From: Psammoneis japonica
Taxonomy: Eukaryota
Length of the DNA stretch: 64,000 bases
NCBI GenBank assembly: GCA_008632985.1
Contig: QPGO01000206.1
Location: forward strand, 1-64,000
Direction: 5' to 3'
The notes under the pieces are model-generated. The model saw only the letters and a list, made by a program, of their open reading frames with translations, ran no database searches and was not told the DNA's origin. This document shows, one piece after another, positions 1,330 through 34,817 of this stretch (position 1 is the stretch's first letter; each line of letters opens with the position of its first letter). Position numbers and translations under genes: made by a program.

Positions 1330-3226
1330 TGTTGAGGCTGATTCATTGGCAACACTTTTCCGGCAACAACTCCAACACAGAGGTGTAGTTTTCCAGAGTG
1401 ACTGATATATCCAAGTCACGTTCTTGCCGCCAGCGACATGCCCTTGCTCACGACAAGGTACCGCACAAAATCGAGTCGATGGTTCGACTGCGCAATTCCC
1501 AGCACAGATCGCCCCTTGGACGACACAAGCGGACCGCTCTTGCTTTTGGAAGTTGTTAAAAACAGGGAGCCATCCGATACAATGGGACAACAATGATCAT
1601 CGACCAACCACTTGAGCAGGTCAAGATTTCCGCCCATGACAGCACAATGGACAGGATACAACAGCTCGCCCTTGACATTGCAAAAGGGAGCGCTAAGGTT
1701 GAGATTGCCTGTCTTGTACAAGTCCATCACCTTGGAATAATCCCCTTGAAGCAAGGCGGCATGAAACGACGTGGGACAACCAGTCGCACGCCAAGCATAT
1801 ATTGAGACTGGAGCTGTTTTTTGCTATTGTAGGTTTCCGGCACCATTTTCGAGGACCACGTTGTAGCACACGACGAACAAATGCAAATACCGCAATTCCG
1901 GCAATGACACGGCCGTTTCAAAACGGCAAACATGGCGTGACAGATAAAGCAGGTGGGGTTTTCATCAAAGGGCATCATTCGTGGTGCCGCCAGCTGCAAT
2001 CCGACCCGACCGGCCTGATACTCACTCTCAAAGCTATAATTGATGTTCTGAACGGCACCTTCTTGATTGGTGGTGCCAATAGAGGCAATCCACATTTTGG
2101 TCGTTTTGTTTTGATAAAATTTCCACGGCAAGACCTGTCGTTGTTTAATCGCTTCCGGTGTGGATGCGATATCGATTCGCTTTCGTGGCTTGGAACCAAA
2201 CACTTTCTCCTTGATACCGCCGCCGGCGGCGGTGGATTTGGTCGTCGACTCTGTCGCTGGATAGATGTGTGTTGTTGTAGTACGCACAACCTCAGCGCGG
2301 ACCGCGTTCTGGACCATCGCACTTTGATGCAACTCTTGTTGGGCCGTTTGTTCCACTTGTTGTTCCAACAAGATGCGTTGCCTTATTTCCTGTTCCAAGG
2401 CTTCGTCAGAAACCACCTCGGCAACCACCGTTTGTTGATCCAGTGTAGCCATGTGTTCCTTTTTCTTGTCGTCTGGCTTTTGACTATCGGAAGGAGGACT
2501 CGGTGAAAGGAAACCCGTGTCTTGACGTTCAATAATGTCATCCTCGTCTCGTTCAATCACCGAGTAGGCACCCGGTCTGAAAAAATTCTCCTCGCCTTGT
2601 TCGTTATCGTGACTCTGTTGTCGATCATTAGGTGTGCTGTGAGTCGGCTGTGTAGCTACAACGAGAGCGGCGGTGGTGGCATGAGTAGGAGGAGTCCTAG
2701 GTGCAAGAGGAGGAGAAGGATTAGTTCTTGGATCTGTTGGCCTCCTTGCTGGAACAGAGGGAGGCCTTGTTGCTGTATCAGCACAAGGACGACTTCGACT
2801 CGTCGTGTCAATACGTGTTGGAGGAAGACTGCTTGATGGCGTTGTATCATCCGCGAGTCGCTTCCGTTGAGGAACAGCACGTCGTCTACCACTGCGATGT
2901 GCGAATTTTGTGACTTCGCCGCCGTCCACTTGAGGAGGCGCAGGAGCCGAACGGCGCATGTTGTTGTTTTCTGGACGGTACTTGTACGCCGAAACCTTGT
3001 CGCTCGATGTGGGACTTGCTGTTGCTTTTTGCGGTTGATGATTCCCCGATTCTTCTTCTCCCACATCACGCAACTCGCCACACATGTCGCATCTTAAATG
3101 GAGAGGATCCGAATTGATAAAGGTACAAGTGGAACACGACCATGGGCCCTTGTTCTCGCTCTCTCCCGGCGCGACCAGAGAAGGAGGGCAATTCACGGCT
3201 GCTGATGCCGGATTTTGCAACGACAT
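1330..3226 (-). CDS. RanBP2-type zinc finger + FYVE-like zinc finger + ankyrin-like repeat protein (frameshifted near 1770-1800 and 1420)
   Basis: WSCSTCTFIN..RCDMCG (RanBP2 finger); CFICHAMFAVLKRPCHCRNCGICICSSC (FYVE-like). Continues in the 1416-1754 frame with LYPVHCAVMGGNLDLLKWLVDDHCCP and GRSVLGIA..RLDFVRYLV (ankyrin-like). Confidence 0.7.
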
Positions 3227-3690
3227 AGTAGCACAATCTTATGATGGCGTCCAACTACGAGATGGTGTAAACACAAAAGCACAATCGTAGCTATGCGATG
3301 ATCTTGCTATCTGGGGCTGCAGTCACTCTGAATTCGAATTATGGTGAAGCCAAAGTGCGGGCGGGGAAGAAAGCACCGTCATGGCGTCACGAATGAGGCG
3401 CACAAGTCAGTCGTGTCTGTCTGTCCGTCTGACTGGTTGCAGCATCCAGCATCATGCGCATCGTTCTTCGGTTCTTTGCAAGAGGCAAGAGCGAGCGATC
3501 CGCAGATCGCGATGAAACGGAAGAGAGCCAGCTTCTGTTGCGAAGTTCCTTCTGTAGAGCTCTGCAGGCTCAGAGAGTGTCTGATTCCATCAAACTGGCA
3601 TGAGTCAACTCGAGGGAGCATGGAGATGAATGGCAGGGACACAAAGAAAAGCACTCGCCGTCAACGCTTGATGCGGCAGGTGGTGATCGA

Positions 3691-5199
3691 GTGCTTGCCA
3701 CAGTTAAAACTTATGATGGACACAAATGGGGATCCGAACGAGTGCTAGCGCGTGATGATGGTATCCGCGTCGATATTACACTCGACTCTCGCCAGTGGGT
3801 GCGACAGGCTATTTCGAAGAAAGAAGGAAGCGCCAGAAGTTACCGAGGAACTGCTGGGCCAACCACTCGGAGTCAACATTTTCCGTCAATACAGCATTCA
3901 AGGACTCAATCATGAAACGCGATTCCACTGCCAGTTTCATGAAAGCGCAACGCCCGACTTTGATCAGACACAACCTGGGTATCGATACAACAAACGCACA
4001 ATTGCAAATGCTCGTCCAACGCATTGGTGAGATTGCGGGGGTATCGAGGTGGAATATTGGTGTCACTGCTGTTTTGTGCAGTGGCGGAAATGATAAAATG
4101 GGGCAGCATGCAGGTGAGAAAGCGAGAAAATGTGATGTCTTAACGCGTACTTCGTTGTTGATGTATACGCGAGACCTTACGAGAATTCTAATCGAAATTT
4201 ACAGACGACGATTAAGGAGAGACGAAAATTGTGGCGCTTGTAGCCGATGCTCCTACCACTGAGCCACGTCGAGTCACAATCAAAAGCCGAAACTTGCCAA
4301 CAGGTCACTCCAAATGGGGGATCAGATAATCGAATTGATCCTGCAACCTGGTGATGCCTATATGATGGACGGTGCGTACTAACCCACCCTTCGTGCGCTC
4401 CGTTACTTCCTTGACATTATACCTCGCCATTTGAAACGTGGACACACGGGGTAGCTCGAGTTCTGCAGAAGAAGAAAGAGAAAGATGTTGCGGCTGCCAA
4501 TCGTAGACTTGCCATCATCTTTATGGATGGCGACTACGTAGAATTCGACAAGGATTCAGGTACTCCAAGCCCTGGTTTGGGGCCAATAAAGCCCTACGCA
4601 GGTCCAACATTCGGCCAAGTCGATGGCATATGTGAAGGGCATGATGTGTACACTAGAGCAGAGCTGGTGCGGAAACGCGGGCATTATGGTCATCATCGAG
4701 GCATTAGTGGCAACTCTAAGGCGGGTTGTGACACAATAATTGTCAGTGGGAATCGGAAAGGAGATGATCAGTTTTATCAAAATCATGTACGCCGCGGAAA
4801 CAAGTGTTGAAGCCTTGGCAATGGTCCTTAGCTATGAAAAGCAATTACCTATTCAAGTTTCCAATCCAAAAAGTACCCAAGCTCTTTCGTGTAATCTGCA
4901 GTTCTTGGCCCAAGAATAGTCAAGAAAGTTACCGGTATGATGGTCTCTATCTTATTCAGTCTTTTGTACCAAGCAGGAAGAAGGGTGGGTTGTTTCAGTT
5001 TCAACTCTGTCGTTGTGCTACAACTGCGGCGCCCGGCAAATCGACATGGCGTAATGCTGTTGACAGTTGTGCCTTCTACAAGGATTGTCTTGCCTTGAGA
5101 ACCATTCCGAATCGTGGACTCAACAGTATGGCAAAATATAAGAAGCTGGTATTCTTCTGGAACTTCAACGCGATATCACGGAAGAGACGCTGGGTGTAA
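3691..5199 (+). pseudogene. AlkB-like 2OG-Fe(II) dioxygenase fused to a C-terminal SRA/YDG domain, disrupted
   Basis: HxD motif MGQHA|DDD is split by an intron at 4114-4204 and followed by an in-frame TAA at 4213-4215. Also ELILQPGDAYMMDG, distal His (THGV ~4445) and RRLAIIF. SRA motifs: HRGISGNSKAGCDTIIVSG, YAAE..ALAMVLSYEKQLPIQV, YRYDGLY (4930-4950), FQFQLCR. Several frameshifts. Confidence 0.7.
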
Positions 5200-5414
5200 T
5201 GCAACTTCTGAGTCTAAGGCATTTGCATCCATCTCAATTACACGACTTTTCTGGCGACATCGTGCATGGTGGCGTGAACAGCACTCTTGCTTCTTATCAT
5301 CAATTCCCTCTACGAACCGAACCGGGTGTCGTCTATCAGCAGGTAAGTCGAGACCTTGTCTGTGTCGAGAACCTGATAGACCTCAGTGAGTTGGTTGTGG
5401 TAGCCGTTGATAGG

Positions 5415-6249: not shown

Positions 6250-9125
6250 GGCCCTACAAGCTCGACGGTGAAGTCCCGGAGACAGCAGTGTCAGGACAGA
6301 CCGCCGACATTTTGCACATGTGCGAGCTCGGATGGTGTGACTGGGTCATGTTCAGGGACACGGCTGTCTCATTCCCTGAAGACAAGGAGGTCCTGGGGAG
6401 GTGCATGGGCCCCAGCAGGGATGCAGGACCGGCGATGACCACCAAGACACTCAAGGAAAATGGACAAGTCATCCACAGATCCTCTGCCCTGCCGGGCTCT
6501 TGCCCCAGAGGAATGGCATCACAAGACGCACTTGGCGTTACGGAACAAATTTGATGCCAAGGCAGAGGCCAAGCTTTGTCCCAGGATGACCATCAGCGAC
6601 ATTGACAACCCCAATGTGATCACTCCCACCTTTGATCCATGCAAGGACGACTCAGAACAAGACCCATCTGGTGCCCCAGAAGCTGACACGCCAACTGACG
6701 TGGCTCACAACATCTGTGTGAATGCAGAAGTTTTGCTGCCACATGGGCACACATGCCAGACCGGCAAGGTCAAACGGCAGAAGCTGAAGCCGGACAGAAC
6801 ACTGGCAGGACAAGCCAATGCCAAACCCATCCCAGACATGCGCGTCTGTGAGGTGGAGTTCCCCGACGGTCAGGAGGCAGAACTGGCAGCCAACGTCATT
6901 GCTGAGAACATGTTTGCTCAGTGTGACAACAAGGGCGACCAGCTGGATGCTGTCGTGGACCACAAGAGCAATGAGCATGCCATCCAGAAACAAGACGCGG
7001 TCTCCCAGGATGGCAGAGGGCACCGATTCACTTGGAAAACAACCAAAGGATGGCACCTTTGTGTTCATTGGAGAGACGGTGTTGCCTCTTGGGAGCAACT
7101 TGCAGATTTGAAAGAATCAAACCAGATTGAACTGGCTGAGCATGCCAGGGCGGGATCTGTTGAAGATGAGCCCACCTTTGCTTGGTGCATTCCACATGCC
7201 TTCGAGAAGCACACACAGATTGTTGCCGCTGTCAACAAGCGTCAACTCAAGCGGACACAAGTGCAGGACACGTGTTCCCAAGACTTGTGAAGAAGCCGTC
7301 AAGATTGATGAGGGAAATGAGGACCGACAATGGCAAGATGCTGTTGACAAGGAGATGGGCACAGTCAGAAAAGCCTTTGAGGTTGTTGACAATGATGAGA
7401 ATCTGGTGGGATGCCAGCATGTCAGATGCCACTTGGTCTTTGATGTTGAACTCCAAGACTTCAAGCACAAGGCCCGCCATGTGGCAGGGGGGACACACTG
7501 CTGAACCTCCGGCTGTGATGACATGTGCCAGTGTTGTCTCTTGTGAGAGTGCAAGGATTGTGTTCACTCTTGCTGCCCTCAACAACCTTGAGGTTAAAGC
7601 CGCAGACATCAAGAGTGTCTGCATCACCGCTCCCAACAGCGAGAAGATGACTGTGACTCTGGGACCAGAGTTCAGACCTGATGCAGGTGAGAGAGCGATT
7701 GTCCAGCATGCCCTTTGTGGATTGAAGAGTGCTGGCATGTCTTTCAGAAATCATTTGGCCCAATGCATGTGACACTTGGGATGGCTGCTGTGCCTGGTGG
7801 ACCCTGATGTCTGGATGATGGAAGAGGTCCGACCCAATGATGGGTTCCTGTGCTGTGCCTGCGCACTGTTGTGTGTTGATGACATTTTGATGGTGCACCA
7901 CGATGCCACATGTGCTCTAAAGGAGATTGAACAACACCTCAAGATGAAGCCCAGTTAAACGGGTGATCCCAAGATGCATCTTGGAGCCAAGATCCGCAAA
8001 GCAGAGCTGCCGAGTGGTGTCCATGCTTGGGACATGAGTTCCAGCAAGTGCGTCTCCAACAGGCTGTCAAGAATGTAGAGGCACATCTTCATGCAAAGAG
8101 CCTGGGGAGCAAAGACGTTGCCGTGCCGGGCAACGGCCCCTTTCCCATGTGACTGTCAACCCAAGGTTGACACCACGCCTGAGCTGGATGCCAATGAAGC
8201 CAAGTTTTGCCAGTCACAGGTGGGTGTCCTGCACTGAACAGTTGAACTCAGATGTGTGGATCTCATTGCTGAGGTTTCCAAGCTTGCCTCCTTCCTCACC
8301 ATGGCAAGGGAGGGCCACCTCGAGGCTGTCCTGCATGTGTGTGCAGGTGCCTCAAGCAAGAACAGGCACAACACCAGGCTGGTGTTTGATCTGACACATC
8401 CAGACACAGACATGTCTGACTTCAAGGAATGTGACTGCAAGTCATTTTGTGGGGACGTCAAGGAGGCGGTCCCCGGCAATGCGCCAATCCCTCCAGGCAA
8501 GGAGGTTGATCTGCACCTGTTTGTTGACTTTGATCATGCCAATGACAAGTTGACAAGGCATTCACACATGGGCTTTTTCATTTGCTTGAACATGGCTTTG
8601 GTCACATGGTTTTCCAAGTGCCAGAGCACCATTGAGATTTTGGTCTTTGGTGCCAAATTTGTGGCCATGAAGCAGGGCATGGAAGCCTTGCATGGTCTGA
8701 GGTGCAAACTGCGAATGATGGGCACACCATTCTTGTCTGGTCCGTCCTGCATCCATGGTGACAACATGTCTGTCATTCATGACACGCAGAGTCCTGAGTC
8801 TACTTTGAAGAAGTTGAGCTCGATTTGCCACACCATGCTGTTAGAGAGTTGGCAGCAATGGGTGAATCCCTCACTGGACACATCCGACTGGAATGCAATC
8901 CGGTGGACATCACCACTGAGATCATGTGCGGTGGCATGAAACAAGATGGACTTGTGAGCATGATGCTTCACGAGGGATTTGCAAAGTTCAGAAACCACTT
9001 CCCTCATCCCATTGGGTTTGTTGCAGGTCACTGGGGTTTCCTTGTTGCCTTTGTGCAGCCAAACATGACCAGACTGTAAATTGAGTCAAGGTGACTCAGT
9101 GTCTGCCTCATCAACTTGAGGGGAC
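6250..9125 (+). mobile_element. 5'-truncated, hypermutated Ty1/copia (CoDi-like) LTR retrotransposon: end of integrase, reverse transcriptase, RNase H, polypurine tract
   Basis: YKLDGEVPET..GWCDWVMFRD; TTKGWHLCVHWRDG..SWEQLADLKES; CHLVFDV..FKHKARHVAGG; HALCGLKSAG; LLCVDDIL (YVDD, 7872-7883). RNase H: FVDFDHANDKLTRHS, WFSKCQSTIE, GDNMSVI..PESTLKK. PPT-like TTGAGGGGAC at 9116-9125. Confidence 0.92.
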
Positions 9126-10190
9126 CAAACAATTTACCATGTGGAATTGTGATGCAGGAATTTGTGTGTTCAATGTAGAATTTTGTCAACAATGTGGACT
9201 CAATTTGTGTGCCAAGATGAGCTCACTTCTTGAAAACAGCAGCATGATGTCGACTCACACCTTTTCTTTTAGTCTGTTCCCCAGCTCTCACCTTCACAGG
9301 GTGTTTCATTCAGCGATCTTTCACTCATGCTTCCTCCTGTTGCACTCAGCCTCTGCCATGCTTCGTTGCTCACCGTTTCCAAAGCGCTGCTGTTTGTCAC
9401 CCTTGATGCACTCTCGTGCAACAGCAATGTCAAGCAATGCTTCCCACAACAGCACACAGAATGACACATTGTAAATCCATGAGTGGGGGCCAACTGCGCT
9501 TCTAAAAAAGCCTTTTCTTCATCACAGCTTTTCCCATGTGCAGCATGCTCCCCTGATCTGTTGGATGAAGATGACAAATTTGCTCGGTTGGAGGCTCTCA
9601 CAGCATGCCGCAAGGAAGGAGCTCCTCTGTCAGAAACTTGTTCCTGTGCCGTGGAATGGCGAGTCCAACAATCACCAGAGTTGTTCAAATGGCAAATGTT
9701 TGCAGTCCTCATGGGCGCGTCCTGTTGACTTGGAGCAATGTGTGATGACATGAGAGTTTGAAGCATGGAAGGCACAGAGGTCATTTTCATCCTGGTGCTG
9801 TTGTTGCCCTCACTGATGGTTGCAGCATGTCATGTTGTTCAGTGTCAAGCAAGTCACCCTCTGCTGACATCCTGAGCAATGCATGATGGCTTGTGGGCTG
9901 ACAGCAGAGATGGCCCACAGCAACCTTTTTTTGAGAAATTGGCAAGAAGCTGCTGCTTGAGACTGTTTGAGATTGTGCTTGCTGAGCTTTCTTTTGTCTG
10001 AGCTCCACTGCTGGCCAGTCCAGCACAAACGTGGGTGCTCCTGGCTGGCACATTTTTTCAACAACAAGCCGTGTTCTCCTGGCACCTCCCACAGCGGTGT
10101 TTGAAGAGATCGTGAGTGTGTGTGATGAAATTCTCTCATCCTTCAGCTCCCAGTCCACATTCTCATAGAGAGATTGCAGAATTGTAGAGT
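6260..10190. other. TpA-depleted hypermutated block 1 (copia relic plus unidentified decayed sequence)
   Basis: About 13 TA dinucleotides in 6260-10160 by eye, none in 6541-7594. For comparison, the 60 bp at 481-540 alone contain 6. Confidence 0.95.
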
Positions 10191-10475
10191 CGGTGAGAAC
10201 CCGGAGTTTTGCATCGCGCCAATTTCCTGCTCATTCCGGTTCATTCATTTTATAAGTCATCGAATATTTTTAAAAATGCAAAATGCTCTGAGATCGAGCG
10301 CGATATTATTGCGTCCATCTTCAATCTCAGCCACAACGAAGTGATATGCTCATCAAATCAACAGTGGCAACTCAACAAAGTTTGTTTCGCCCTTATATTA
10401 TCATCTCCCGCAGCCATCTCCCATCTCCTCCATCGAGATCTTTTACTTGTCTTTTGATTCTTGTGAAAATCACGT

Positions 10476-12714
10476 ATGAGTGTGAAAGAAGACATTGTTG
10501 GTGCCTTCTCCGATGTCGGTCTCGACGGGGTCGATGATGAAATTCTTAGCAGGTGTAAGTCAACCTCTGAACGTCTCCTATGATCGCTGTGTGTCGCGCT
10601 GTATGCATCTCTCATACTGTAAGTTGCTCCTTGGGTTTCACTATTTTGTGATCAGGCGTTTTATTGGCTTCCTCGCTACACACGACTCCAACGCAAATGG
10701 CAGAAGTATGGGACGCGTACAGTCTCACCAAGAACCTTACAGAGCTGACCGATCACACCTTTCAAGGCTTTCGCAACGAATTATTCAAGCAAATGGATGT
10801 AGTCGACAAAGTATCTCAAAGCGATGGCGCCGTTGTTGCACGTCCGGGATTGGGCAAACGCAACTTACCCATGGTGACACCTCCCTCCAACAAGCGCACA
10901 ACTCCACCCGGCAATGCCCAGTCTTCCTCGGGCGTGGATTCAGTTGCTACTCGAGTATCCGTCAGTCCAACTAAGTCAGTTGTGACGCCAAGTCATATTT
11001 CCAAGTACGACGAACGCAAGGATGCTGACAAGGTGGAGGTTTCCTACCAACCCAACGACAAACTGATGGATGTTACTTCGGAAGATGATGTGTCATCAGG
11101 TCCAAGGTGTGTCGTATCGTATGGCTTTGATACCAACGTGAAAAAGCCTTATCGCCATATGTTTACTACTTTGGAAGAACGGGCGGATGCGTTAGACAAC
11201 CGCTTGGTGAAGATGGGAGACTTGATTGTGGAGCGTTATGGTATTGACAGCGACGACGAGGAGATTGCCTTACAAACTGTTGGGGTACCGGGTGAAGAAG
11301 TAGTTCGTTGTGTAGGAAGGATCTGTAGTGAAGTAAGTCTTCCCAAGAACTCGATCTTTTGCTCTTGCAGTTCTACAATTCTTGATGTTGCGCTTACATT
11401 TCTCTTCGATTTTTATTTGTTCAGGCTCACATGGGCAAGATGAATGACACGTCGGTTGTGCTGGAGGGATGCCGTCACGTGTCGAACGGATGCCGCATCA
11501 GCATCGACTTGTCCAAAATCAAGGAGTCCAAAGCCCCCTTCTCTCTTTTTCCCGGACAGATCGTCGCGATTGAGGGAGTTAACCATTGTGGTCGCGATAT
11601 GGTGGCGCACAAAATTTGCGAGGGCGCTGCGCACGCCGCCAACAAGAGTACAGTGGAGGATTTGATTCGCTATCATTATGACGTGCAGAATGGACAGCCA
11701 CTCAAAATTGTATCGGTTTGTGGGCCTTATACTACAAGCGACAATCTCGAGTACGCACCGCTCTTGGATTTGATGCAGGCGATCCAGAGGGAAAAGCCTG
11801 ACCTTGTCATTATGACCGGACCATTTGTTGATTTGCGACATGAACAAATCAAAGAAGGCGATTTGATGTTGGACACGGAGGATGGTACAAAAATGAACGT
11901 TGACTATGATGCATTCTTTGCTAACAAGGTGGCTGCATATATTGAAAGTTTGTTTGAAGAAGAAGAAATTCACACCCAATTTGTCCTTGTTCCTAGTATG
12001 GACGACGCCAACGCTGAATGGGTGTAAGTCTTGCAGTTACGTTTTCTACCAGATTTTCTTTGCATTGACTTAACTTCTCATTTTATCTTCGTGCATAGGT
12101 ACCCTCAAGCACCCCTGACCGATCGAGTGCCAAATGGAGGAAAGCTTGTGTCTTTCCCTGGCTTGGACGGACTTGAGTTTGGAACCCTTGGGTTGCACCA
12201 TGTCGAGACGGCTGGAGAAACGTCAACGAAAAAGAGTCGCCGGGTTCATTGTGTATCCAACCCTTGTACCCTCAAGGTGAACGAGATTGTGATTGGCGTT
12301 GGCTCTGCAGACGTTCTCTTTGATATGAACAAGAATGCCACCAACGGAAACCTTGTTCCTGGCACCACCATTATGCGCATGGCGCAGCACTTGCTTCTTC
12401 AGCAATCTTACTATCCTCTCTTTCCGTCCGAAGAAGCAAATTTGGACTTGAAGCATATGCAGCAGTGTGATATGCCTTGTCAACCGGACGTGTTGATTGT
12501 TCCATCCAAGCTCCAGCGCTTTGCTCGTACCGTGTTGGAGCATACGGTCGTTGTGAACCCCGGATATTTAAGTCGGGGCCCTACTGGCGGGACGTACTCG
12601 ACCATGAACATTCATCCGATTCCCCGCGAGACACTTGAAAACGCCGCTGACGGTACCGTGGAGATGGAGCATAATGTTCATGATCGAATCCAAGTGGAAA
12701 TCAAACGTATCTAA
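10476..12714 (+). CDS. POLA2: DNA polymerase alpha subunit B; exons 10476-10554, 10656-11332, 11425-12023, 12099-12714
   Basis: GT-AG introns restore the frame. Motifs: YRHMFTTLEERADALD, VGRICSEAH, FSLFPGQIVAIEG, GPYTTSDNLEY, PDLVIMTGPFVD, VSNPCTLKVNE, QSYYPLFP, PDVLIVPSKL, VVNPG. Confidence 0.95.
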
Positions 12715-13622
12715 TGCCTGTCAATAAATGTTACGGAGAGCGGGAAATGGAAGGGATCTGGGAACACTGTGGATGTGTAGGATAAAGCAAAGTACTAGCA
12801 ACAATTGCGTTACCAGCATTGCGAAAAAGGTATTCATGGTCTCTTCGATGGACATAGAATTCAAGGTTTTGTCCTAATTTCTAGAAGTACTCTGGTAGCC
12901 AAGTCCGATTTCGCTCTTTCTTCTCGTCGTATTCTAGATTACTACCGGTATGGTTTATCTTCCAAAGCACGATTCAGAGCGTCGTCTCCAGCTTCCTACT
13001 TCTCCACTCTTCAGTGTTCCAAGATGCTGTTGTTGTTGGATGCATGTGACACCCGAAACGTTGGTTAATGCACCCTGAGGACGTACAACGAAGAGAACTT
13101 GTTCCTTCCCTGATTTTTCTTGCTGGAAACGTTAGAAAAGGTCAGTGGGTATGGCCGATAGATTTCTAAGGCAGCAAGGCGCTCCTATCAAATGGCTAGA
13201 CCATACTGTACTACAAAGAACGAGCGCTGCCTTATTTTTCTTCTTGCCTTGGTTGGTTGTTTCGGCCTCTGCATTTTGTGGCGAAAAATCTTTTTATACA
13301 AAAGCTCTGTGCTCGTATGTTTATTACGTTCAGGGCAGTATGATTTCTTATCTAGTTCTAATAAACCTCAATTTCATATATCAAATGAATATCGTTGAAA
13401 AAAATTCTCAACGGACTATTAGGATCTCCATTCATTATATACCTATAAAATTTGATGTTCGATCCAACGATCACGCAACGTCACCCGCCTCTTTCTTCCG
13501 TCTCGTTTCGTCCTCCACACGCAATGATCGGCAACACAGACTGACGGTTTTGGTGGCTTTGTCCGTCTTGTCCTGGCTGAGAAAAGTCTACAGCTTCTGA
13601 TATCGTGAGTGTCATTTCTAGA

Positions 13623-15217
13623 ATGGGAAATCGAAGAGCACTGAAACAGTCTCGAACAATCTTGAGAAAGGGGAGAATACGAAATGACCGACGCGAGGGA
13701 ATGACTACAGTTCAAAAGGTGTGGCTTTCACTTGCTGTGCTTTTGTTTCTTCAATTGATTGGATGGTTGTTTGTGATCTTTGTGTGGAGGCAGGGAGGCA
13801 GCAATGAGGCCAGTTCTGTTCCTCCCCATGATTTGCTCAGCCGTGGAGGACTGAGACGAATGTACGCGAGCAACAGGTTGAATCATCTGCTCGGCGCAGC
13901 CTACACCGTGGGCGGAGTCGACGATCTTTTGAAACTTGGATATGGCGTACGCCCCAGACTTGTGATCTACACCAATCATATTCTGGATGAGATCCTTGAG
14001 CCTGACAGACCGTCATTTCAGCGACTTCCCGACGACTACCCGGTGTATCCAAGCAAGAGGGAAATGAATATTTCCGCTGACGATTTGGAACGACGGAATG
14101 ACATTGTGAACAACAGCAAGCATTACGTCAGGCATGCGAAATATGCAGTTTACGAAGAATATCCAGAGTGCAACCAATGTACGAGTGGCAGTCCAAGTCT
14201 TTTCCGGCTTGCAACAATGTGCATGAGATCGACATGTCTGATTTTAACTATGAACGGAACAAGTATCATCGGCAGATTTACTACAAAGCACATGGATACT
14301 TTCGTGATGTCTTTGTGATTCGAGATATCAACCAGGAAAAGCGTGTATTAAAAACGCTGCGCTATTGGCACACGTTTGACGAATTGAATTTCGATCGACA
14401 CCGAAAAGATGCGGTAGCCATGGAGCGTTTGACGGCTTCGCCATATGTTATGGATATTTATGGATTTTGTGGGCAAACGGCCATCTTTGACTTTGGTGAG
14501 GAAGGCAATATCGATACGGCTCTCTGGGAATCGGACCACACCATGACGTATATGGAGCGACTCAAGGCAGCAACGCAGGTGTCTCAGGCTGTGACGAGCC
14601 TTCACACTTTCTTCGACAAGGCCCCTGCCATTGCACACACTGATATTATGACCAACCAATTCATTTATTCGAATGGAATGTACAAGCTCAACGACTTTAA
14701 TCGCTGTATCTTTCTCTATTGGAACACAACAAGCAACAGCGGCAACTGTCCTTTCAAGTTTCCTGACGAGAATGCTTGGACGTTCAGGTCTCCCGAAGAA
14801 TATATCTACGGGTTTCAATCGGAAAAGATTGATGTGTACAGCATGGGTAATATCTTTTTCACTTTGCTAGAAGACGATTTTCCTTTCCATGAAGTTGGTG
14901 ACGACATAAGCACCGAAACCGTTCAAACGTGGGTCAAAGAAGGGAGGCGCCCCGACTTTGTGACCAATGCTCACATTCGAAACACCACACACCCAGCGGT
15001 GCTTGCAGTCAAGCATGCAATGTATATGAGCTGGAAGCACGATTGGCGAGAACGAGCTTCTGCAAAGGAAGTGCAGGATTATTTGATTGCAGAGCTAGCC
15101 CGGATTGAACAATTTGAGTTGGACAAGAAGTGGCAGGAAGAACACCAAGAGACGACGATGCAGGTAGCGGCCAAAGACCAACAGAGCGACGAGGAAAAGG
15201 ATCAATCAGTAAAGTAG
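13623..15217 (+). CDS. Type II membrane-anchored protein kinase-like protein (PKDCC/VLK-like); 1-nt frameshift near 14172
   Basis: N-terminal TM helix VWLSLAVLLFLQLIGWLFVIFVW. Kinase motifs: VLKTLR, DAVAMERLT, IAHTDIMTNQF, KLNDFNRC, FRSPEEY, EKIDVYSMGNIF. Confidence 0.8.
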
Positions 15218-15662
15218 CATCTCTGCACTCAATCACGCTTACAGTTTCATTCTTGCGTTGGATTTCTTCCCTACGTACTAGTCTACCAAGGGATGATTCC
15301 AGCCAAGAGAGGCTGCTCTACCCAGTTTCTCCAGAAGATTCGTTGACACACTTGTGAGATCACACGAATCTTTCTAACACAGCATAAAGTAGATAAGACT
15401 TTAGAGATCACGGATATATACTAAAACTAAAACACACAACAAACGAGAAGGAGCGACTGTTTCCAAGACAACAGTAGACTTTTCGAAAAGACACGTCAAA
15501 AAGCTTATCGGCTGCGCCGTTTTGCTAACACCCATAACCTTTTATTTTAAATGCATGCCCTATCGCCGCGCCGGGCGCCGGGTACCGGTATCCATCATGC
15601 AGCACCAAAAATCGATGGCCATGAGGAATTCATCCGCTGAACGGGATCGTTCCATGACGCTA

Positions 15663-16618
15663 ATGAAAGTAGCCATGTTGATTGCTTTGCTGGGCAGATT
15701 TCGCGTGTTTCATCATTTGCAGGTCCACGTGGCAAGTCGTCTTTTCTTCCCGCTTGTTCGAGAATGTATGCCACTCCCCCTTCTGGCAGTAGTTGTACTG
15801 AGGAGGTAGCACATCATGAATCAAGCCCTTTGATAGTGGAGGAACCTCTTTTAAGATCAGAAGGCCTCCTTGCCGTCGTCAAGCCTCTAGAGTGGACCTC
15901 ACAAGACGTTGTAGCGTATGTTCGACGCATTTTGGAAAGCGATGCTCGTAAGCGGGGACTGAAGCCTGCCCGGGTGGGTGCACGAGGAAGAAACAAGAGC
16001 AGGATTGTCAAAGTGGGCCATGGCGGTACATTGGATCCTCTTGCAACTGGATTATTGGTCTTGGGGGTCGGGAAGGGAACAAAGCAGCTACAAAATTATT
16101 TGACAGGATCCAAGCAATACGTTGCCACTGCTGAGCTCGGGTTCGAAACCACAACTCTTGACATGGAGGGAAATGTGACCAAGAAAGAATCGTTCGATCA
16201 CGTCTCTCTTGATACTATTGAGAAAGTGCTTCCGAACTTTACCGGGACCATACAGCAAGTCCCTCCAATCTTTAGTGCCATTCGTAAGGGTGGGAAAAAA
16301 CTATATCAGGCGGCAAGAGAGGGCAAGACTCCAGATGATTTGAAGATCGAGCCGCGAGAGGTCGAGGTACACCGCATTAAAATATTGCACAGTGAAAACC
16401 TATCACTGCCGCATTTTGGGATGGAAATAGAGTGTGGAAAAGGCACATATATCAGGTCACTAATTCGTGACATTGGCCACAAAATAGACACCGTCGCCAC
16501 CATGACGGGTTTGGAAAGAACAAAACAGGGACAATTCACTCTGGAAACAGCCCTTGTTAAGGAAGAGTGGACAGCTGACAACATTTATGCTGCAATCGAT
16601 GCATTCAATGTTGACTAA
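15663..16618 (+). CDS. truB: tRNA pseudouridine(55) synthase, probably organelle-targeted (presequence joined across an apparent frameshift near 15695)
   Basis: VVKPLEWTSQDVV, KVGHGGTLDPLATGLLVLGVG, QVPPIFSAIRKGGKKLY, CGKGTYIRSLIRDIG, LERTKQG. Confidence 0.93.
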
Positions 16619-16687
16619 ATACTTTTGGAATTTTAGACTACATTTCAAACCAAACTTCAGTCAGACGAAAGCAACTCTGAGTAGATA

Positions 16688-19600
16688 TTAAGTTCGAGTC
16701 AAGCTCTTATAGGCTTCCGTGACAGCCTGGAATCTCGTCGCCGTGTCTGGCAACTTTGATTTGTCCGGGTGGTAGGCCAAGGCGAGTCTACGGTATTGGG
16801 CTTTGATGACGTGGACCGGGCAACCGGGTGGTAAACCGAGCCTTGCGTACAAGTTTGGCCACTTGTAATGATCCCAGCGTAGCTTGGAAATATCTTCAAC
16901 TGGACGAGTGAAAACTGGTTGTCTGCCGGTACTAGCGGCTGCGCCGCGTTGAACAGCTCGTGCACGTGCTTCTCTGATAAGTCGTTCCTGCTCCTGCTGT
17001 GCAGCGCTTTGAGAATAGTTGTAGTTGTACGCGGTATCGTTGGGAAATTTCGCCGCGCTTTGAGAATAGTTGTAGCTGTACTCGGTATCGTTGCGAAATT
17101 TTGGCTTTGAAAACACAAAATTAGTGTTCTGTGAGTTGGGTTTTGCGGCATTTTCGGGTCTTGCTGTGCGAAGATTAGGAGGTACGTTCGCCTTTGCTGC
17201 TTTCCGCTTGGCAGCCCCGGGTTGCGGACACGGCTTCGCAGCACTCGCACCATACACTTGCTGAGCCCGCGGTGCTCCTGAACAGAAACTTCGAAGTGGC
17301 CTTTTTGTGGGCGGGATGCTTTCTGATGAGGAGTGCAACGATCGCTTATCGCAATTGTCGTTCTCGCTCAAATCAATGACAGCAGCTCGTTTTGGTGCCT
17401 TCGGCTTGCTTTCGGTACATCTGGATGCAACATCATCAACGTCTTCACTCAAATCAATGATAGTCTTCTTGGTCTTCGAGGAACGATGTTGGGTACTCGT
17501 GACTTTGGGCTTCTTAAGCGTTGGTTTTGCCTTTTTGAGAACAGGAGAAATTTCGTCATCGCTGCTGTCGATCACGATTGGGTCATTGGGACCTACTCGT
17601 GCACGTTTTAATGCTGATGGTTGAGTCCCAGGGACTTCCCGTTGTTCCAACCTCGCTCTCTCTCCCTCGCTCTCAAGACGGCAGTCGCTCACAATGTGGC
17701 TGTCAATGTTGCAAGAAGTTTCTTTCCCATTCGCTTGATCAGTTGCGCTCGCTTTCTTGTTATCAGACACCTGCTGGCGGCCTGTTCCAATTTCGCGTAA
17801 CGACTTCGACCTCTCAGGGCCATCGTCGCATGCACTGCTATCCTTGGCATGCGCTGACGACGTCGTAATACGATCCATATTGTAATTTTGCTTCATTGGC
17901 ATTTCACTTCCTTTCATTTCTGTTGTTTGTCGTTTCATTTCTGTTGTATGTTGTTGCGGCTGTGCAATAAGATCGCATTCAACATCTCCCGCACTTCTGT
18001 CGAAAGTATGCTCCTTTGAACCCTCGCCGTTGGCAACACCAATATTGTGGCTCAGCGGGTGTGTCATCTGCTCCGCTGAATCTAAACCCTTGCTCGTCTT
18101 TCTAGATTTGGCAATGCAATCGTCTACATGCACTCGAATACCCATAGGTTCCCTGGAAGGCGCCAACGGCGAACTACTCCCATGGCCGACACCATTCGTC
18201 TGAAGTTCGGCCACGCTGGCTAGATCCACATCGCTAAACTTGGCTGTATCTTTGCACTCCCCGCTAGGTTTCTTTGCGACTTTGTCCATCTCTTTACATT
18301 CGAGATCTGTATTCTGGGAGGAGGGTGCGCCTGACGACGGAGACGCACGTTCGCTGGCCATTTCCGTGTCCTTTCTTAACCCCGCACCGCTGATGTCAGT
18401 CAAGATAGCGCGTGACGGTCTTTCGTTGCAATAAGTGTCCGAAGATAGTTTCGAGGACTTGACAAGCTCACCATCTGACGAAGCATCTCTCGTTGTGTAA
18501 CGAGATGACAAATTCTTCTGCATCTGATTTTCTCTTGGCGCTGCTTTAACTCGAGAGCTACCGGGATCAGAAGTTTGAATTTCTCCTAGTCGGGAGAACG
18601 AGGCACTTTCTCCGTTGTTTCCTTGATCCTCAGACTTGTTTATATCGATGCCGTTTTGATCTGCCGCCAGAGGCAGAATCTTTTCTCTCGATCCTTCGGT
18701 GGAGCTGACAGCCACCGAGCAACGGGCGCGTTCGCTGCCTATATCGACCACACCCGCGGATGCCACGTGCAGCCCTTCAGCTTGAGCCGGAAGTTTCGCA
18801 GAAATACTGAATGGTTCTTCTGCCGCTTTCGTATTTCGTGCAGCCAATGGATGCTGGGTCGTGTCTTCCGCATTAGCACCATCACCTTGCTTCTCATTCA
18901 CATTTCTCTCCGGCGTTTGCTTTGCGTTCGGTTTATCTAAAACTGGTCGATCAACGCTGCGCTTGTCATCCTTCTGCACAGTGTTAACATCATTCTGCTG
19001 TTTCTCTTCAATCACTGCTGCAAACGGACCTTCTCCCGCATCCATTCCCCGTGCATCTATCGGCTTTGCCAGTACTGGCTTTTCAGAACATCGGTCGGTA
19101 CTGACTGGCTTCCCTTCCTCGTCGATGCCTCTTTTTCCTGTTAACCCTACAGCATCTTCCTTTGCAGTTGCTTTGGGTGGAGCCTTGAACGCCACATCTC
19201 TCTTTTCACCGAATATTGCCGCACCCGGTGCTATGCGTAAGCCCTTTTCAGTATTCGGTTGGGCTGTACTCTTCGAACTCTCGGCTTGACCTCCGCTACT
19301 GTAGGATCCTCTGTTACCTTGTCGACTAGATCGCTTCGTTGAGCTAGTCTTTTGTTCGGCTTCGGGTTTCTTCTTGGTCTTTTCTTCCGCCCGAGACCAT
19401 GTTTTGTTGGGGAATAACTTCTTCTGTCGCCGATTCTTGGGCGATTGCTTTTTCCGTTTTTTTCCTTCGATACGATCCGGGTGATCCTTCCTAACCTCTT
19501 TACGCCTGCCAACGGCGCGCCTTTTATCAGTCAGCAGCACTTCTCTTTCTTTCGCTCGAGTCGTCTGTTGTTGTTTCCCTAACGTTCTCGAGACATATGC

Positions 19601-22331: not shown

Positions 22332-22758
22332 TGAGCGAACAGAACACACGTGCAGAAAAACAAGCGGACGCACGGCAACGGACAGGCGCGCATTGAAACT
22401 GGACGGATGATGGACGGGCGATGGAGCTTTCTCGTGCACGCGCGCGCGCCTTGCGCACGCGAACAATGAATGGCCTGAGCAACATCCAACTTCAACATTT
22501 GCATGAATATCTTCATGATTGAGTAAAATCAATACTTATCATGATAGATTTGCCTCCACGTGAAACCAAAACTTGTTGGAGGGACATCATCCAACATCAA
22601 CCATCACCGATCGATCAGCGTGTGTGCATGTGTGCAATCTGTGTGGCGTACGCATGTTGTTTGTCGATACTACTGCATTACCAAAACCATTGCGAGAGTT
22701 GACGCTCTGTGGTTGGCATTGAGAGTGACGAGTACAGTACAGGATTATTGTAGAAAAC

Positions 22759-24225
22759 ATGGGAAAGAAGGCAAAGTCATCAAGTGGTATTGCAAAGGCC
22801 GCGAGTCGCAAGCTCGACAAATCAACTCTGCCAGAGCCGCCGCCTCCACCAGAAGAAGAAGTAAGCAACTTGCATTGCGTTTGGATTTTCTTTGTGCCGT
22901 GCAGTTCGATGACTGTTTTGACTGACTTCGAGGTGGCTCACTGAAGCTTTGTTATTACGCTGCAATCTCTCGTTCATCAGCACGGTTCATCAAAGCCTTT
23001 GGAAAAGCCTTCGCTTCCCGGTACCGGTTTTAAGGTTTTGGGTGAAGAAGCTTACGATGACGGCGGAGTGGCTGATTTAAGTCTGCTTATTGATTTGGAC
23101 GACAAAGTCCAGAGACGCCGGCGTGGAGAAAACGAGTACTTTACTGCGCTCAAGGCGGATCTGTTGCCGCGTGCCACTCGCGGTCCGATGGCCAACATGC
23201 CTCGTCGCGAACAAAAGGTCAGTCTTGCTCAGTTGTTATTTTCGGAAGACGACGGTGCAGAAGACAGAGGCCCATCCGAGGTTTACTATGATCAAGTGGA
23301 CGGAGAAGAAGATGAGGCCACGATGAAACAAAGAGCGGACCGCTTGACTCAGGCGAGGTCTGCTCTTCGATTGTCGCTCTTGTTGCGAGAGGCTGCTTGT
23401 GCCAGTCTCAGTCTTTCAGAGCTTTGTAAGAGGAGGCTAACTTTTTACGGCAAGGCGGGAGCCCCTGATGCTATGCGATGCGCAGATAAGGCCATTGAGA
23501 TTGCCGGAGATGGTTTCTGGGATGGAGATGAGATTGCTATTGAGGTGAGAAGAACGAGAAATTTCGCCCGTCCAGAATTAATTTCGTGCCTTGTTTGTTG
23601 GAACAGGATTCACGCGTGTTGCTGCGGATGCAAAATATAGGCCGAAGAAGAAGTAGTGGTGGATCCAAAGTACGAGAAGAACGCCACAACGCCTGGACTG
23701 GCGCATCCTTCAACTCTGAAGCTGCTTCCCATGCGCGTGTCGCACTTGTGCATGCGCTCCGCACTCCTGCAGCGAGGAAATGCTTTGGCTGCCCAGGGCA
23801 AGGAAGAAGAAGCTCGCGAGTCGTATGAAAAAGTTTTCCCGCTTGTTGAGAACGAACCCCGCTGTGCACGCGTCGATTGGGAGCGTCATTCGCTCTATAT
23901 TAACATTGGGAATACCTTTTCCAGGTCGGGTGATTACGACCTTGCTAATGAGCAGTATAAGATTGCTGAATCCATGGGCCAGGATCATCTGAACGAGGAG
24001 GGCGGCAGTGTTAATGACGGAAAAGGTATGATTAATGCTGCAAAACGCGCGAGAGCCTTCGCCCTCAGGAGAGCTGGTAAAGACGATGAAGCGAAAGCCC
24101 TTTTGAAGGAAGTTTTGGACGCGCAGATTAAGCAGGATCTTGAACAGGCGCAGAAGAAGAAAGAGGAAGCAGAGGCTGCTGCAGCAGAAGCTGCTAAAGA
24201 AGGTGCTACGCCTGAGGCATCTTAG
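22759..24225 (+). CDS. TPR-like repeat protein; exons 22759-22860, 22981-23544, 23641-24225
   Basis: Canonical GT-AG introns restore the frame. Helical repeats [25 protein letters not shown] and [25 protein letters not shown]. Confidence 0.8.
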
Positions 24226-25709: not shown

Positions 25710-26005
25710 GGTAATGAATGTGAATGAGCATGGTTGGTTTTTTGCTGCGTCGGCGGCACGACGTTTTTGTACTCTGTACTTTGATGCACAAGTAGAATTT
25801 CTACGCATGTCAGACTCCGGCCGATCGAAATTCCGCGATTTCGGACAGCACACGCACCAAAGAAGGAAAGAACTGACTTCAGAGCGAGACGATGAAGATT
25901 TCAGATTTCAAAGCAGCGCGAGGAGCGAGGCAGGTTCACAAGAGTTGGTTGCCGTATTCATAATAGAAATAGGCCTATGATAGAGGTATTTTCGAAAAGT
26001 AGAGT

Positions 26006-34783: not shown

Positions 34784-34817
<34 letters not shown>
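34471..34817. repeat. Two (CT)n microsatellites (34471-34497 and 34791-34817)
   Basis: Read directly from the sequence. Confidence 0.9.

What the first reader, a model, noticed from the sequence alone, without database searches (positions are those of the whole stretch)
3691..5199. AlkB-like dioxygenase fused to an SRA/YDG methylcytosine reader next to a hypermutated block
Seen: HxD...H...R-type 2OG-Fe(II) motifs followed by an SRA domain (GISG, IIVSG, YRYDGLY), disrupted by a TAA and frameshifts. Established: SRA domains bind methylated cytosine (UHRF1, SUVH) and AlkB/TET-JBP enzymes oxidise DNA bases. Inference: a reader-plus-oxidase architecture could direct base modification to methylated TE domains. 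For example, T oxidation would give T->C, so intact paralogues are candidate effectors of the TpA hypermutation. Proximity is weak evidence, and this copy itself keeps normal TA.
Basis: partly seen in the sequence, partly recalled or inferred. Interest (0 to 1): 0.72.

Follow-up and report, generated by a model that had tools for sequence, protein, structure and literature searches.

The report
Dead diatom AlkB-SRA fusion gene copy
This is a broken copy of a diatom gene that joins an AlkB-type DNA repair enzyme to a domain that grips methylated DNA, and nothing found here suggests it causes the TA-erasing mutation seen next door.

Summary
Window ~3649-5199 (+) encodes, across three reading frames, an AlkB-like 2OG-Fe(II) dioxygenase followed by a SAD/SRA domain. 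It is broken by a TAA at an invariant Gln, at least five frameshifts and a second intron with no acceptor.

The family is real. 28 of 40 scanned relatives carry both domains, and every named one is a raphid pennate diatom. A modelled intact relative matches human ALKBH3/ALKBH2 and TagI/UHRF1 SRA. The AlkBH3-SAD fusion in stramenopiles was catalogued by Iyer et al. 2016, and this scan found intact copies in another diatom genome.

Aiming an oxidase at modified DNA is plausible. But this is an ALKBH3-type dealkylase, not a TET/JBP thymine oxidase, and this copy is dead. The only paper found on TpA hypermutation proposes an adenine deaminase.

Most likely reading: a pseudogene of an SRA-tethered alkylation-repair (3mC/1mA) enzyme. 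A second genomic copy differs from this one mainly at TpA sites, so the gene looks like a victim of the mutator rather than its effector. Ordinary, modest interest.

The parts
3341..3704 (.). TA-void patch that overlaps the 5' end of the gene. It has 1 TpA (o/e 0.05), with TG o/e 1.32, CA 1.52 and CpG normal at 0.90.
   Evidence: The 215-nt TpA-free gap 3340-3555 is the longest of 1243 gaps in the non-erased parts of the window. The adjacent 150-nt gap ranks 9th.
3649..3807 (+). N-terminal region in frame 1 (..DRVLATVKTY..). It resembles the N-termini of P0009 and P0012. No in-frame ATG lies upstream; a possible start at ATG 3630 is in another frame.
   Evidence: One search gives only a weak profile match (-2.9 bits). 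Searches support it by comparison with relatives.
3821..4027 (+). First part of the AlkB domain in frame 2 (profile positions 107-169, FRQYSIQG..QPGYRY). The frame change from the previous piece falls around 3790-3835.
   Evidence: 55.0 bits; tblastn with five relatives.
3999..4113 (+). AlkB core, end of exon 1, in frame 0 (profile 172-207). It reads WNIGV..LCSGG..GQHA, with His of the HxD triad at 4107-4109. LYRDG has become LCSGG (invariant Y181>C at 4077-4079, R182>S). A frameshift against the previous piece falls within 3999-4027.
4114..4204 (+). Intron 1, 91 nt, GT..AG, phase 1. Its removal gives H-A-D-D-D.
   Evidence: a contig of run X2 skips 91 nt (4110>4202, cut +3, GT..AG) at depth 249. 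The X2 depth in the intron bin is 27.8, against 122-474 in the neighbouring bins. The position was predicted independently from the family consensus HADDDQGE.
4205..4293 (+). Start of exon 2 in frame 1 (profile 208-238): DDD*GETKIVALVADAP..RRVTIKSRN.
   Evidence: (13.7 bits).
4213..4215 (+). Premature TAA at the family-invariant Gln (Q196 of P0009). A single C>T in CAA would give it.
4308..4373 (+). Rest of exon 2 in frame 0 (profile 243-265): GDQIIELILQPGDAYMMDG. A frameshift against the previous piece falls within 4293-4308.
4372..4426 (+). Remnant of intron 2. The donor G|GTGCGT is at the same codon and phase as the intron of metagenome locus L002 (MDG|EMQ). No AG lies before coding resumes, and reading through hits TAA at 4380-4382.
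   Evidence: L002 has GTACGT..CAG at the same place. (X2 contig 4343-5006 runs through unspliced).
4427..4774 (+). AlkB C-terminus plus the first half of SRA in frame 2 (profile 270-380). The second iron His is at 4445-4447 and the R277 equivalent at 4505-4507. The invariant R283 equivalent is Met at 4523-4525. GISG and IIVSG lie here.
   Evidence: 95.2 bits; SAD_SRA E 3e-4.
4770..4859 (+). Middle of SRA in frame 0 (profile 379-408): MYAAE..LPIQV. A frameshift falls at about 4772.
4885..5199 (+). Second half of SRA and the tail in frame 1 (profile 418-501), with YRYDGLY at 4930-4950 and the stop at 5197-5199. One or two more frameshifts fall between 4859 and 4920.
   Evidence: 37.6 bits; SAD_SRA E 1.4e-6; the three frames read by eye.
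6300..10200 (.). It is not part of the gene.
   Evidence: 300-nt windows hold 0-4 TpA, with CpG o/e 0.11-0.67.

Best explanation
The stretch is a pseudogene of the raphid-pennate-diatom family that fuses an ALKBH3-like Fe(II)/2-oxoglutarate dioxygenase (N-terminal) to a SAD/SRA domain (C-terminal).

Shown:
- It belongs to the family and has the two-domain order AlkB then SRA.
- It has one real intron, a nonsense codon, at least five frameshifts and a second intron with no acceptor.
- It has lost the invariant 2OG-binding Arg (R283>Met) and Y181/R182.
- So no enzyme can be made from this copy.

Inferred:
- The locus is still transcribed and intron 1 is still spliced. This rests on my reading of run X2 as RNA-derived.
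- Intact family members most likely work as direct-reversal repair enzymes. The SRA domain docks on methylated (or otherwise modified) DNA. The AlkB domain then oxidatively removes N-methyl lesions there (3mC, 1mA), in particular the 3mC that C5-DNA methyltransferases make as a by-product.

The gene is not the TpA mutator. The evidence suggests duplicated copies of it are targets of that process.
For: Family and architecture:
- HMMER with the 4415-4810 piece gives 104 hits at E<=1e-3 and 21 at E<=1e-10.
- Of the 40 hits scanned with Pfam, 28 carry both PF13532 and PF02182. The other 12 are 179-328 aa models with SRA only.
- Named members are Nitzschia sp. Nitz4, Cylindrotheca closterium (two), C. 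fusiformis, a Bacillariaceae MAG, Epithemia and Amphora. The three whose taxonomy I looked up (Epithemia, Amphora, Cylindrotheca) are Bacillariophycidae.
- H191, D193, H254, R277 and R283 are invariant in 35 members.

Clade:
- The profile search against PDB gives ALKBH3 at 1e-5 and ALKBH2 at 0.33. The SRA part gives TagI at 8e-18, then SUVH5 and UHRF1.
- The AF2 model of P0009 has pLDDT 88.3 and pTM 0.80.
- Foldseek gives ALKBH3 TM 0.75-0.80 and ALKBH2 0.73-0.78, normalised by target; TagI 0.38; UHRF1/UHRF2 SRA chains 0.53-0.63.

Pseudogene:
- Neighbouring profile segments abut or overlap in nucleotides at about 4010 and 4772, so no intron can explain those changes.
- The window copy keeps 27 of 38 invariant and 32 of 42 near-invariant residues.
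- No insertions or deletions against the window appear in contigs of two runs that cover all 30 bins.

Intron 1: the 91-nt GT..AG joint appears in X2 only, with the intron-bin depth at 27.8.

Repair rationale, from the introduction of bioRxiv 10.64898/2026.01.24.701492 (read), which cites Rosic 2018 (not itself read):
- DNMTs introduce 3mC.
- ALKB2 co-occurs with DNMTs across species.
- Loss of ALKB2 lets 3mC accumulate.

Victim reading: variant contigs of X1 over 4919-5227 differ from the window at 21 listed places, 12 of them T>C or A>G. Nine of those 12 fall on a window TpA.
Against: - No activity or binding was tested, so the repair role is inferred from family likeness.
- The SRA pocket is divergent. 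By HMMER's alignment the UHRF1 GGYEDD tyrosine is mostly Arg here, and the TGSGG loop is not matched. Reading of 5mC is therefore not established.
- Iyer et al. 2016 (PMC4738411, passages) suggested m6A recognition and demethylation. They said it of the divergent SAD fused to AlkB in fungi and of the AlkBH3/AlkBH5 clades in general.
- Run X2 is labelled 'DNA?' by the tool. If it is DNA, the joint means an intron-less copy exists as DNA and does not show transcription.
- The runs probably come from the sample the window was assembled from, so they do not independently exclude strain-specific lesions.
- Whether an intact paralogue exists in this genome is unknown.
Confidence: 0.75

Rival explanations
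1. One reading: intact paralogues of this reader-plus-oxidase are the effectors of the TpA hypermutation. They would oxidise T (or another base) in methylated TE DNA so that it is copied as C.
For: - The gene lies about 1.1 kb from a TpA-void block.
- The same blocks are CpG-poor (o/e 0.16), so probably methylated, which an SRA could read.
- The family's iron and 2OG residues are invariant, so intact members are probably active oxidases.
Against: - The domain is closest to ALKBH3/ALKBH2 by profile and by fold. In the Pfam scan of 40 relatives the families listed were PF13532, PF02182 and, in two proteins, PF07039; no TET/JBP family was among them.
- From established knowledge, AlkB enzymes remove N-alkyl groups and restore the normal base, and 5hmU still pairs with A.
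- The only description found of TpA hypermutation proposes an adenine deaminase.
- Proximity means little in a window where TpA-void blocks make up nearly half of the sequence.
- This copy is dead.
Confidence: 0.03
2. The family is an eraser of a regulated mark, not a repair enzyme. It would be a reader-guided demethylase of N6-methyladenine (or an oxidase of 5mC) in DNA or RNA. The window holds a dead copy of it.
For: - Iyer et al. 2016 propose that AlkBH3/AlkBH5-clade proteins fused to DNA-binding domains, SAD/SRA among them, could demethylate m6A in DNA.
- The SRA pocket is divergent.
- Two of the 40 scanned relatives add an SGF29 Tudor domain, a chromatin-reader context.
Against: The closest solved relatives, ALKBH3 and ALKBH2, are 1mA/3mC repair enzymes. 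No data on 6mA in these diatoms were examined here.
Confidence: 0.2
3. The gene is intact and functional. The apparent breaks would then be unrecognised introns, assembly errors or recoding.
For: - One apparent frameshift did turn out to be an intron.
- The copy keeps 59 of 80 conserved residues.
- The locus may be transcribed.
Against: - The TAA sits on an invariant Gln, three codons after the splice junction.
- Profile segments in different frames abut with no room for introns at about 4010, 4772 and 4860.
- Contigs of two runs show no insertions or deletions against the window.
- Intron 2 has no AG acceptor.
- The invariant R283 is Met.
- There is no in-frame start codon.
Confidence: 0.03

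Closest known systems
Human ALKBH3 (and ALKBH2), AlkB-family direct-reversal repair dioxygenases for 1mA/3mC
   Same: The fold of the N-terminal domain of the intact relative P0009 matches (Foldseek E 1.4e-10, TM 0.78-0.80 to 8jnk; ALKBH2 0.73-0.78). The profile match to ALKBH3 has E 1e-5. The HxD..H triad and RxxxxxR are invariant in the family.
   Different: Sequence identity is only 13-20%. The human enzymes carry no SRA domain. The substrate of the diatom proteins is untested. The window copy is broken.
Stramenopile AlkBH3-related proteins fused to SAD, catalogued by Iyer, Zhang and Aravind 2016 (PMC4738411, supplement)
   Same: [quoted passage not shown] Clade and architecture match what is found here.
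   Different: I could not see which two species they meant, so identity with this diatom family is likely but not shown. No function was tested there either.
Fungal SAD+AlkB group (Iyer et al. 2016)
   Same: It combines the same two domain types and was proposed to act on modified bases.
   Different: The domain order is reversed: SAD is N-terminal, often with a zinc ribbon. The authors call the stramenopile fusion independent.
SRA domains of TagI (bacterial modification-dependent nuclease), UHRF1/UHRF2 and SUVH5
   Same: Profile E-values are 8e-18 (TagI), 7e-9 (SUVH5) and 1e-8 (UHRF1). Fold TM, normalised by target, is 0.38 for TagI and 0.53-0.63 for the UHRF1/UHRF2 SRA chains. The YRYDGLY motif is shared.
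   Different: By HMMER's alignment, one of the two base-stacking tyrosines is not kept and the loop after the second is shorter. The labels of the UHRF1 pocket residues are recalled, not computed.
Annotated diatom proteins of the same family (Nitzschia sp. Nitz4 NITZ4_004860; Cylindrotheca closterium 'Fe2OG dioxygenase / YDG domain-containing protein')
   Same: Same family. The best local identity to the window's translation is 41-45%.
   Different: Those are intact open frames of 549-834 aa. The window copy is interrupted.

Membership tests
AlkB-like 2OG-Fe(II) dioxygenase (Pfam PF13532; ALKBH3/ALKBH2-like) | Double-stranded beta-helix fold like solved AlkB homologues | tested here: met
   Tested on the intact relative P0009, not on the broken copy. 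The AF2 model has pLDDT 88.3. Foldseek gives ALKBH3 TM 0.78-0.80 at E 1.4e-10.
AlkB-like 2OG-Fe(II) dioxygenase (Pfam PF13532; ALKBH3/ALKBH2-like) | Iron triad HxD...H | tested here: met
   Invariant in 35 members. The window keeps His 4107-4109, the Asp codon split across intron 1 (4113 + 4205-4206) and His 4445-4447.
AlkB-like 2OG-Fe(II) dioxygenase (Pfam PF13532; ALKBH3/ALKBH2-like) | 2-oxoglutarate-binding RxxxxxR | tested here: not met
   The family has R277 and R283 invariant. The window has R...M (RLAIIFM), with the second Arg replaced at 4523-4525.
AlkB-like 2OG-Fe(II) dioxygenase (Pfam PF13532; ALKBH3/ALKBH2-like) | Pfam model matched above the gathering score | tested here: not met
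   No PF13532 hit on any window piece at E<=1. Of the 28 two-domain relatives among the 40 scanned, 25 score 45-81 bits, above the cut-off of 31.2; three short models score 22.8-28.8 bits. The window matches only the family's own profile.
AlkB-like 2OG-Fe(II) dioxygenase (Pfam PF13532; ALKBH3/ALKBH2-like) | Open reading frame able to give the enzyme | tested here: not met
   TAA at 4213-4215, at least five frameshifts, a dead intron 2 and no in-frame ATG.
AlkB-like 2OG-Fe(II) dioxygenase (Pfam PF13532; ALKBH3/ALKBH2-like) | Oxidative dealkylation of N-methylated bases | not testable with these tools
   Needs an enzyme assay on an intact member.
SAD/SRA domain (Pfam PF02182) | Profile match | tested here: inconclusive
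   The two halves score 21.0 and 28.6 bits in different frames, each below the 30.7 cut-off. The SRA match clears that cut-off in 34 of the 40 relatives scanned (30.8-64.5 bits) and falls below it in six (24.0-30.6 bits), four of them short gene models, one a 603-aa protein and one a 343-aa model that carries the full AlkB domain.
SAD/SRA domain (Pfam PF02182) | SRA fold | tested here: met
   Tested on P0009. TagI, UHRF1 and UHRF2 SRA chains match at E 2e-9 to 1e-7.
SAD/SRA domain (Pfam PF02182) | 5mC pocket (two stacking Tyr plus Asp, as in UHRF1; residue labels recalled) | tested here: inconclusive
   In HMMER's alignment the first Tyr aligns with Arg or another residue. The second Tyr (Y373 of P0009) is nearly invariant. 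The TGSGG loop is not matched. No residue-level structural alignment was available.
SAD/SRA domain (Pfam PF02182) | Binding of methylated DNA | not testable with these tools
   Needs a binding assay.
TET/JBP dioxygenases (the family that oxidises thymine or 5mC) | TET/JBP-type catalytic domain | tested here: not met
   In the Pfam scan of 40 relatives the only families listed were PF13532, PF02182 and, in two proteins, PF07039 (SGF29 Tudor). The listed Foldseek matches to the dioxygenase domain are all ALKBH3 or ALKBH2 chains.
Stramenopile AlkBH3-SAD fusion (Iyer et al. 2016) | AlkBH3-related dioxygenase and a SAD/SRA domain in one polypeptide of a stramenopile | tested here: met
   The window copy qualifies only as a pseudogene of this kind.
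Fungal SAD+AlkB group | SAD N-terminal to AlkB, often with a zinc ribbon | tested here: not met
   Here AlkB comes before SRA in all 28 two-domain relatives. The fungal listings read SAD+AlkB.

The most novel reading that the evidence does not exclude
SRA-tethered AlkB normally protects methylated DNA from a DNMT-linked A:T>G:C mutagenesis, and its decay in this lineage contributes to the erasure of TpA in methylated repeats.

Grounds:
- In E. coli made to methylate CG, AT>GC mutations appear only when alkB is deleted (bioRxiv 10.64898/2026.01.24.701492; abstract, introduction, one results section and discussion read).
- Here the blocks that lost TpA also lost CpG.
- The copy of the tethered AlkB in this window is dead.

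Against:
- Diverged paralogue contigs are present in the runs.
- The change is strictly at TpA, nearly complete and sharply bounded. That looks like an active enzyme more than failed repair.
- The preprint's effect was strain-dependent and unexplained.
Probability: 0.05. Interest if true: 0.8.

Novelty: new member of a known kind. Interest (0 to 1): 0.3.

Why it matters
- It removes a tempting but unsupported candidate from the search for the TpA mutator in this diatom.
- It shows that duplicated host-gene copies, not only transposons, bear that mutator's mark.
- It points to an untested enzyme family: an ALKBH3-like dealkylase tethered to a modified-DNA reader, found so far only in raphid pennate diatoms among named sources.
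- That family would be a direct test of the idea that cytosine methylation carries an alkylation-damage cost that needs local repair.
- This copy itself has no function to study.

Tried and rejected
- **Own-genome search for paralogues:** no genome is held.
- **Close paralogue in the 5.8-billion-protein set:** the 4415-4810 piece with lengths 'longer' gave 94 candidates, none at E<=1e-8. This is weak evidence.
- **Earlier scan notes by sequence:** nothing.
- **Pfam on window pieces for the AlkB domain:** no hit.
- **Single-sequence phmmer of P0009 against PDB:** it found only SRA chains. The profile was needed to reach ALKBH3.
- **ESM Atlas with P0009:** it gave only leads, fungal PF13532 clusters at 0.84-0.85 and no structure search.
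- **'Present without TA loss' test on relatives' DNA:** the metagenome scan gave only 4 loci of 1.2-5.7 kb, with TA o/e 0.58-0.79. These are too short and too genic to say anything about their transposons.
- **Sequencing runs:** no RNA holder is listed.
- **Literature on AlkB-SRA fusions:** three searches gave only Iyer et al. 2016. I could not find in its supplement which two stramenopiles carry the fusion. Rosic 2018 itself was not read.
- **Two readings I dropped:** that 4372-4426 is a working intron (no AG acceptor, and the contig runs through it), and that the tactaac at 4377 is a branch point (it directly follows the donor).
- **Error:** a first Pfam call failed because one read-through piece still held a stop. 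I dropped that piece.
Full report
**What is there**

Three-frame translation of 3300-5400 shows recognisable pieces of one protein scattered over all three + frames. I built a profile from 35 intact relatives (alignment A1). It matches the frames in strict collinear order:

| Frame | Window coordinates | Profile positions | Score / note |
|---|---|---|---|
| 1 | 3649-3747 | - | weak, -2.9 bits |
| 2 | 3821-4027 | 107-169 | 55.0 bits |
| 0 | 3999-4113 | 172-207 | |
| 1 | 4205-4293 | 208-238 | |
| 0 | 4308-4373 | 243-265 | |
| 2 | 4439-4774 | 270-380 | 95.2 bits |
| 0 | 4770-4859 | 379-408 | |
| 1 | 4885-5145 | 418-501 | 37.6 bits; frame closes at 5197-5199 |

tblastn with five full-length relatives gives the same path.

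Pfam sees the two SRA halves, at E 3e-4 and 1.4e-6, each below the gathering score. It does not see the AlkB part in the fragments. No other copy lies in the window.

**The family is real and already catalogued**

- The piece 4415-4810 spans the end of the dioxygenase and the start of SRA. It finds 104 proteins at E<=1e-3 among 1.84 billion representatives, 21 of them at E<=1e-10.
- I scanned 40 of those 104 with Pfam. 28 carry both PF13532 and PF02182, always in that order. The other 12 are 179-328 aa gene models with SRA only.
- Several of the short models start near the MDG|EMQ intron position, so they look like last-exon fragments.
- Two of the 40 also carry an SGF29 Tudor domain.
- Named members are Nitzschia sp. 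Nitz4, Cylindrotheca closterium (two proteins), C. fusiformis, a Bacillariaceae MAG, Epithemia and Amphora. I looked up three of these genera and all are Bacillariophycidae. The word-indexed searches scored only 8000 candidates, so absence elsewhere is not shown.
- In A1 the iron triad (H191, D193, H254) and both 2OG arginines (R277, R283) are invariant.
- The A1 profile hits human ALKBH3 (E 1e-5) ahead of ALKBH2 (0.33). For the C-terminal half it hits TagI (8e-18), SUVH5 and UHRF1.
- An AlphaFold2 model of P0009 (pLDDT 88.3, pTM 0.80) matches ALKBH3 at TM 0.75-0.80 and ALKBH2 at 0.73-0.78, normalised by target. It matches TagI at 0.38 and the UHRF1/UHRF2 SRA chains at 0.53-0.63.

In print, Iyer, Zhang and Aravind 2016 (PMC4738411; passages and supplement passages read) say three relevant things. 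AlkBH3 shows fusions to SAD/SRA. [quoted passage not shown] There is also a separate fungal SAD+AlkB group with the reverse domain order. Earlier notes of this scan describe intact AlkB-SRA genes in another diatom genome. I treat those as leads that agree, not as evidence.

**This copy is a pseudogene**

- *Intron 1 is real.* The shift from frame 0 to frame 1 at 4113/4205 is an intron. Removing 4114-4204 (91 nt, GT..AG) yields H-A-D-D-D, matching the consensus HADDDQGE. A contig of run X2 skips exactly these 91 nt at depth 249. The X2 depth in the intron bin falls to 27.8, against 122-474 beside it.
- *Nonsense codon.* The next codon but three is TAA (4213-4215), on the invariant Gln.
- *Frameshifts.* The other frame changes cannot be introns. 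At about 4010 and 4772 the neighbouring profile segments abut or overlap in nucleotides. At about 4860 the frames, read by eye, overlap by a single T in a T-run.
- *Intron 2 is dead.* The donor G|GTGCGT at 4372 sits at the same codon and phase as the GTACGT..CAG intron of metagenome locus L002 (MDG|EMQ). There is no AG before coding resumes at 4427, and reading through meets TAA at 4380.
- *Conserved residues.* The copy keeps 27 of 38 invariant and 32 of 42 near-invariant residues. Losses include Y181>C, R182>S, R283>M and R395>Q.
- *Start codon.* There is no in-frame ATG upstream of the first homologous piece.
- *Assembly check.* Contigs of two public runs cover all 30 bins and show no inserted or missing letters against the window, so the breaks are not artefacts of this assembly. 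The runs are probably from the same sample as the window.

**Is it transcribed?**

The tool labels X2 'DNA?' as a guess. I read it as RNA-derived for two reasons. The joint and the intron depth dip occur in X2 only. The larger run X1 from the same sample covers the intron at full depth and has no joint. If that is right, the locus is transcribed, intron 1 is spliced and intron 2 is retained (X2 contig 4343-5006). If X2 is DNA, the joint instead shows an intron-less DNA copy. Either way the intron is validated.

**Relation to the TpA-erased blocks**

- About 25 of the window's 64 kb lie in 1-kb windows with TpA o/e of 0.12 or less, and most of those also have low CpG.
- Pooled values for the erased blocks are TA 0.04 and CG 0.16 with TG 1.84 and CA 1.85. 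The baseline is TA 0.57 and CG 0.99.
- The nearest block starts at about 6300.
- The gene body is normal: 70 TpA, o/e 0.68. Nine of 11 conserved Tyr codons are kept.

Two things tie the gene to the process as a target.

- 3341-3704 holds a single TpA (o/e 0.05), with TG and CA raised and CpG normal. Its 215-nt TpA-free gap is the longest of 1243 gaps in the non-erased parts of the window.
- Variant contigs of X1 over 4919-5227 come from another copy, since their upstream sequence is unrelated. They differ from the window at 21 listed places, 12 of them T>C or A>G. Nine of those 12 fall on a window TpA.

Diverged paralogue contigs also appear at 3665-3713 and 4059-4113. Earlier notes on this genome describe the same mutator hitting repeats and gene copies.

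**Why it is not the mutator**

- The catalytic domain belongs with ALKBH3/ALKBH2, which restore alkylated bases.
- Thymine oxidation is TET/JBP chemistry, and 5hmU pairs with A (established knowledge, not tested here).
- The only description of TpA hypermutation that I found is in Bigelowiella natans (bioRxiv 10.64898/2026.01.13.699255; passages read). It proposes an ADAT2-like adenine deaminase and never mentions AlkB or SRA.

**What the family most likely does (inferred)**

DNMTs make 3mC as a by-product, and ALKB2 co-occurs with DNMTs. This is stated, citing Rosic 2018, in the introduction of bioRxiv 10.64898/2026.01.24.701492; I did not read Rosic 2018. A dealkylase tethered by an SRA domain to methylated DNA would put the repair where that damage arises. 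The rival is a reader-guided eraser of 6mA or 5mC, along the lines of Iyer et al. The SRA pocket differs from UHRF1's at one stacking Tyr and the following loop by HMMER's alignment, so which base it reads is open.

**The boldest reading left open**

That same preprint reports that CG methylation in E. coli causes AT>GC mutations only without alkB. The effect was strain-dependent and its mechanism unknown. A decayed tethered AlkB, in a genome whose methylated repeats lose TpA to TpG/CpA, could therefore be cause rather than bystander. I put this at about 5%, because of the strict TpA context, the near-complete and sharply bounded erasure, and the presence of paralogue contigs.

**Verdict**

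This is a dead member of a catalogued but untested family. Interest is modest.

Noticed in passing
window 6300-10200, 29500-41000, 44000-53900, 58200-62000: In these blocks nearly every TpA is gone (pooled o/e 0.04) and CpG is low (0.16), with TG and CA at about 1.85. ORFs inside them have no Pfam hit. Earlier notes describe the same thing in this genome.
   Followed up: partly
window 3341-3704: A 364-nt patch with one TpA and normal CpG lies between the FYVE gene and the AlkB-SRA pseudogene. It looks like a small, TpA-only erased patch in otherwise genic DNA.
   Followed up: partly
window 4919-5227 (variant contigs of run X1): A second genomic copy of the pseudogene's 3' end differs mostly by window TpA reading CpA or TpG in the other copy (9 of 12 T>C/A>G changes). 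A duplicated host-gene fragment has therefore been hit by the TpA process.
   Followed up: partly
window 3665-3713 and 4059-4113 (X2 contigs): Short contigs with 4 differences each and unrelated flanks point to a further diverged paralogue of the gene. It may be expressed. I could not tell whether it is intact.
   Followed up: no
L002:1775-1873 and window 4372-4426: An intron at the same codon and phase (MDG|EMQ) occurs in a metagenomic relative and in the window copy. Locus L003 instead has its intron a few codons upstream.
   Followed up: partly
proteins P0035, P0046; P0053, P0125: Some family members are longer and add an SGF29 Tudor domain or PF20710. This suggests links to histone-mark reading.
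   Followed up: no
window 1727-3238 (-), 12028-29341, 55370-64000: The TA-normal parts hold ordinary host genes: FYVE zinc finger, DNA polymerase epsilon subunit B, a protein kinase, TruB, a DnaJ protein, SNase, pyruvate kinase, Vps16 and Hsp90.
   Followed up: partly
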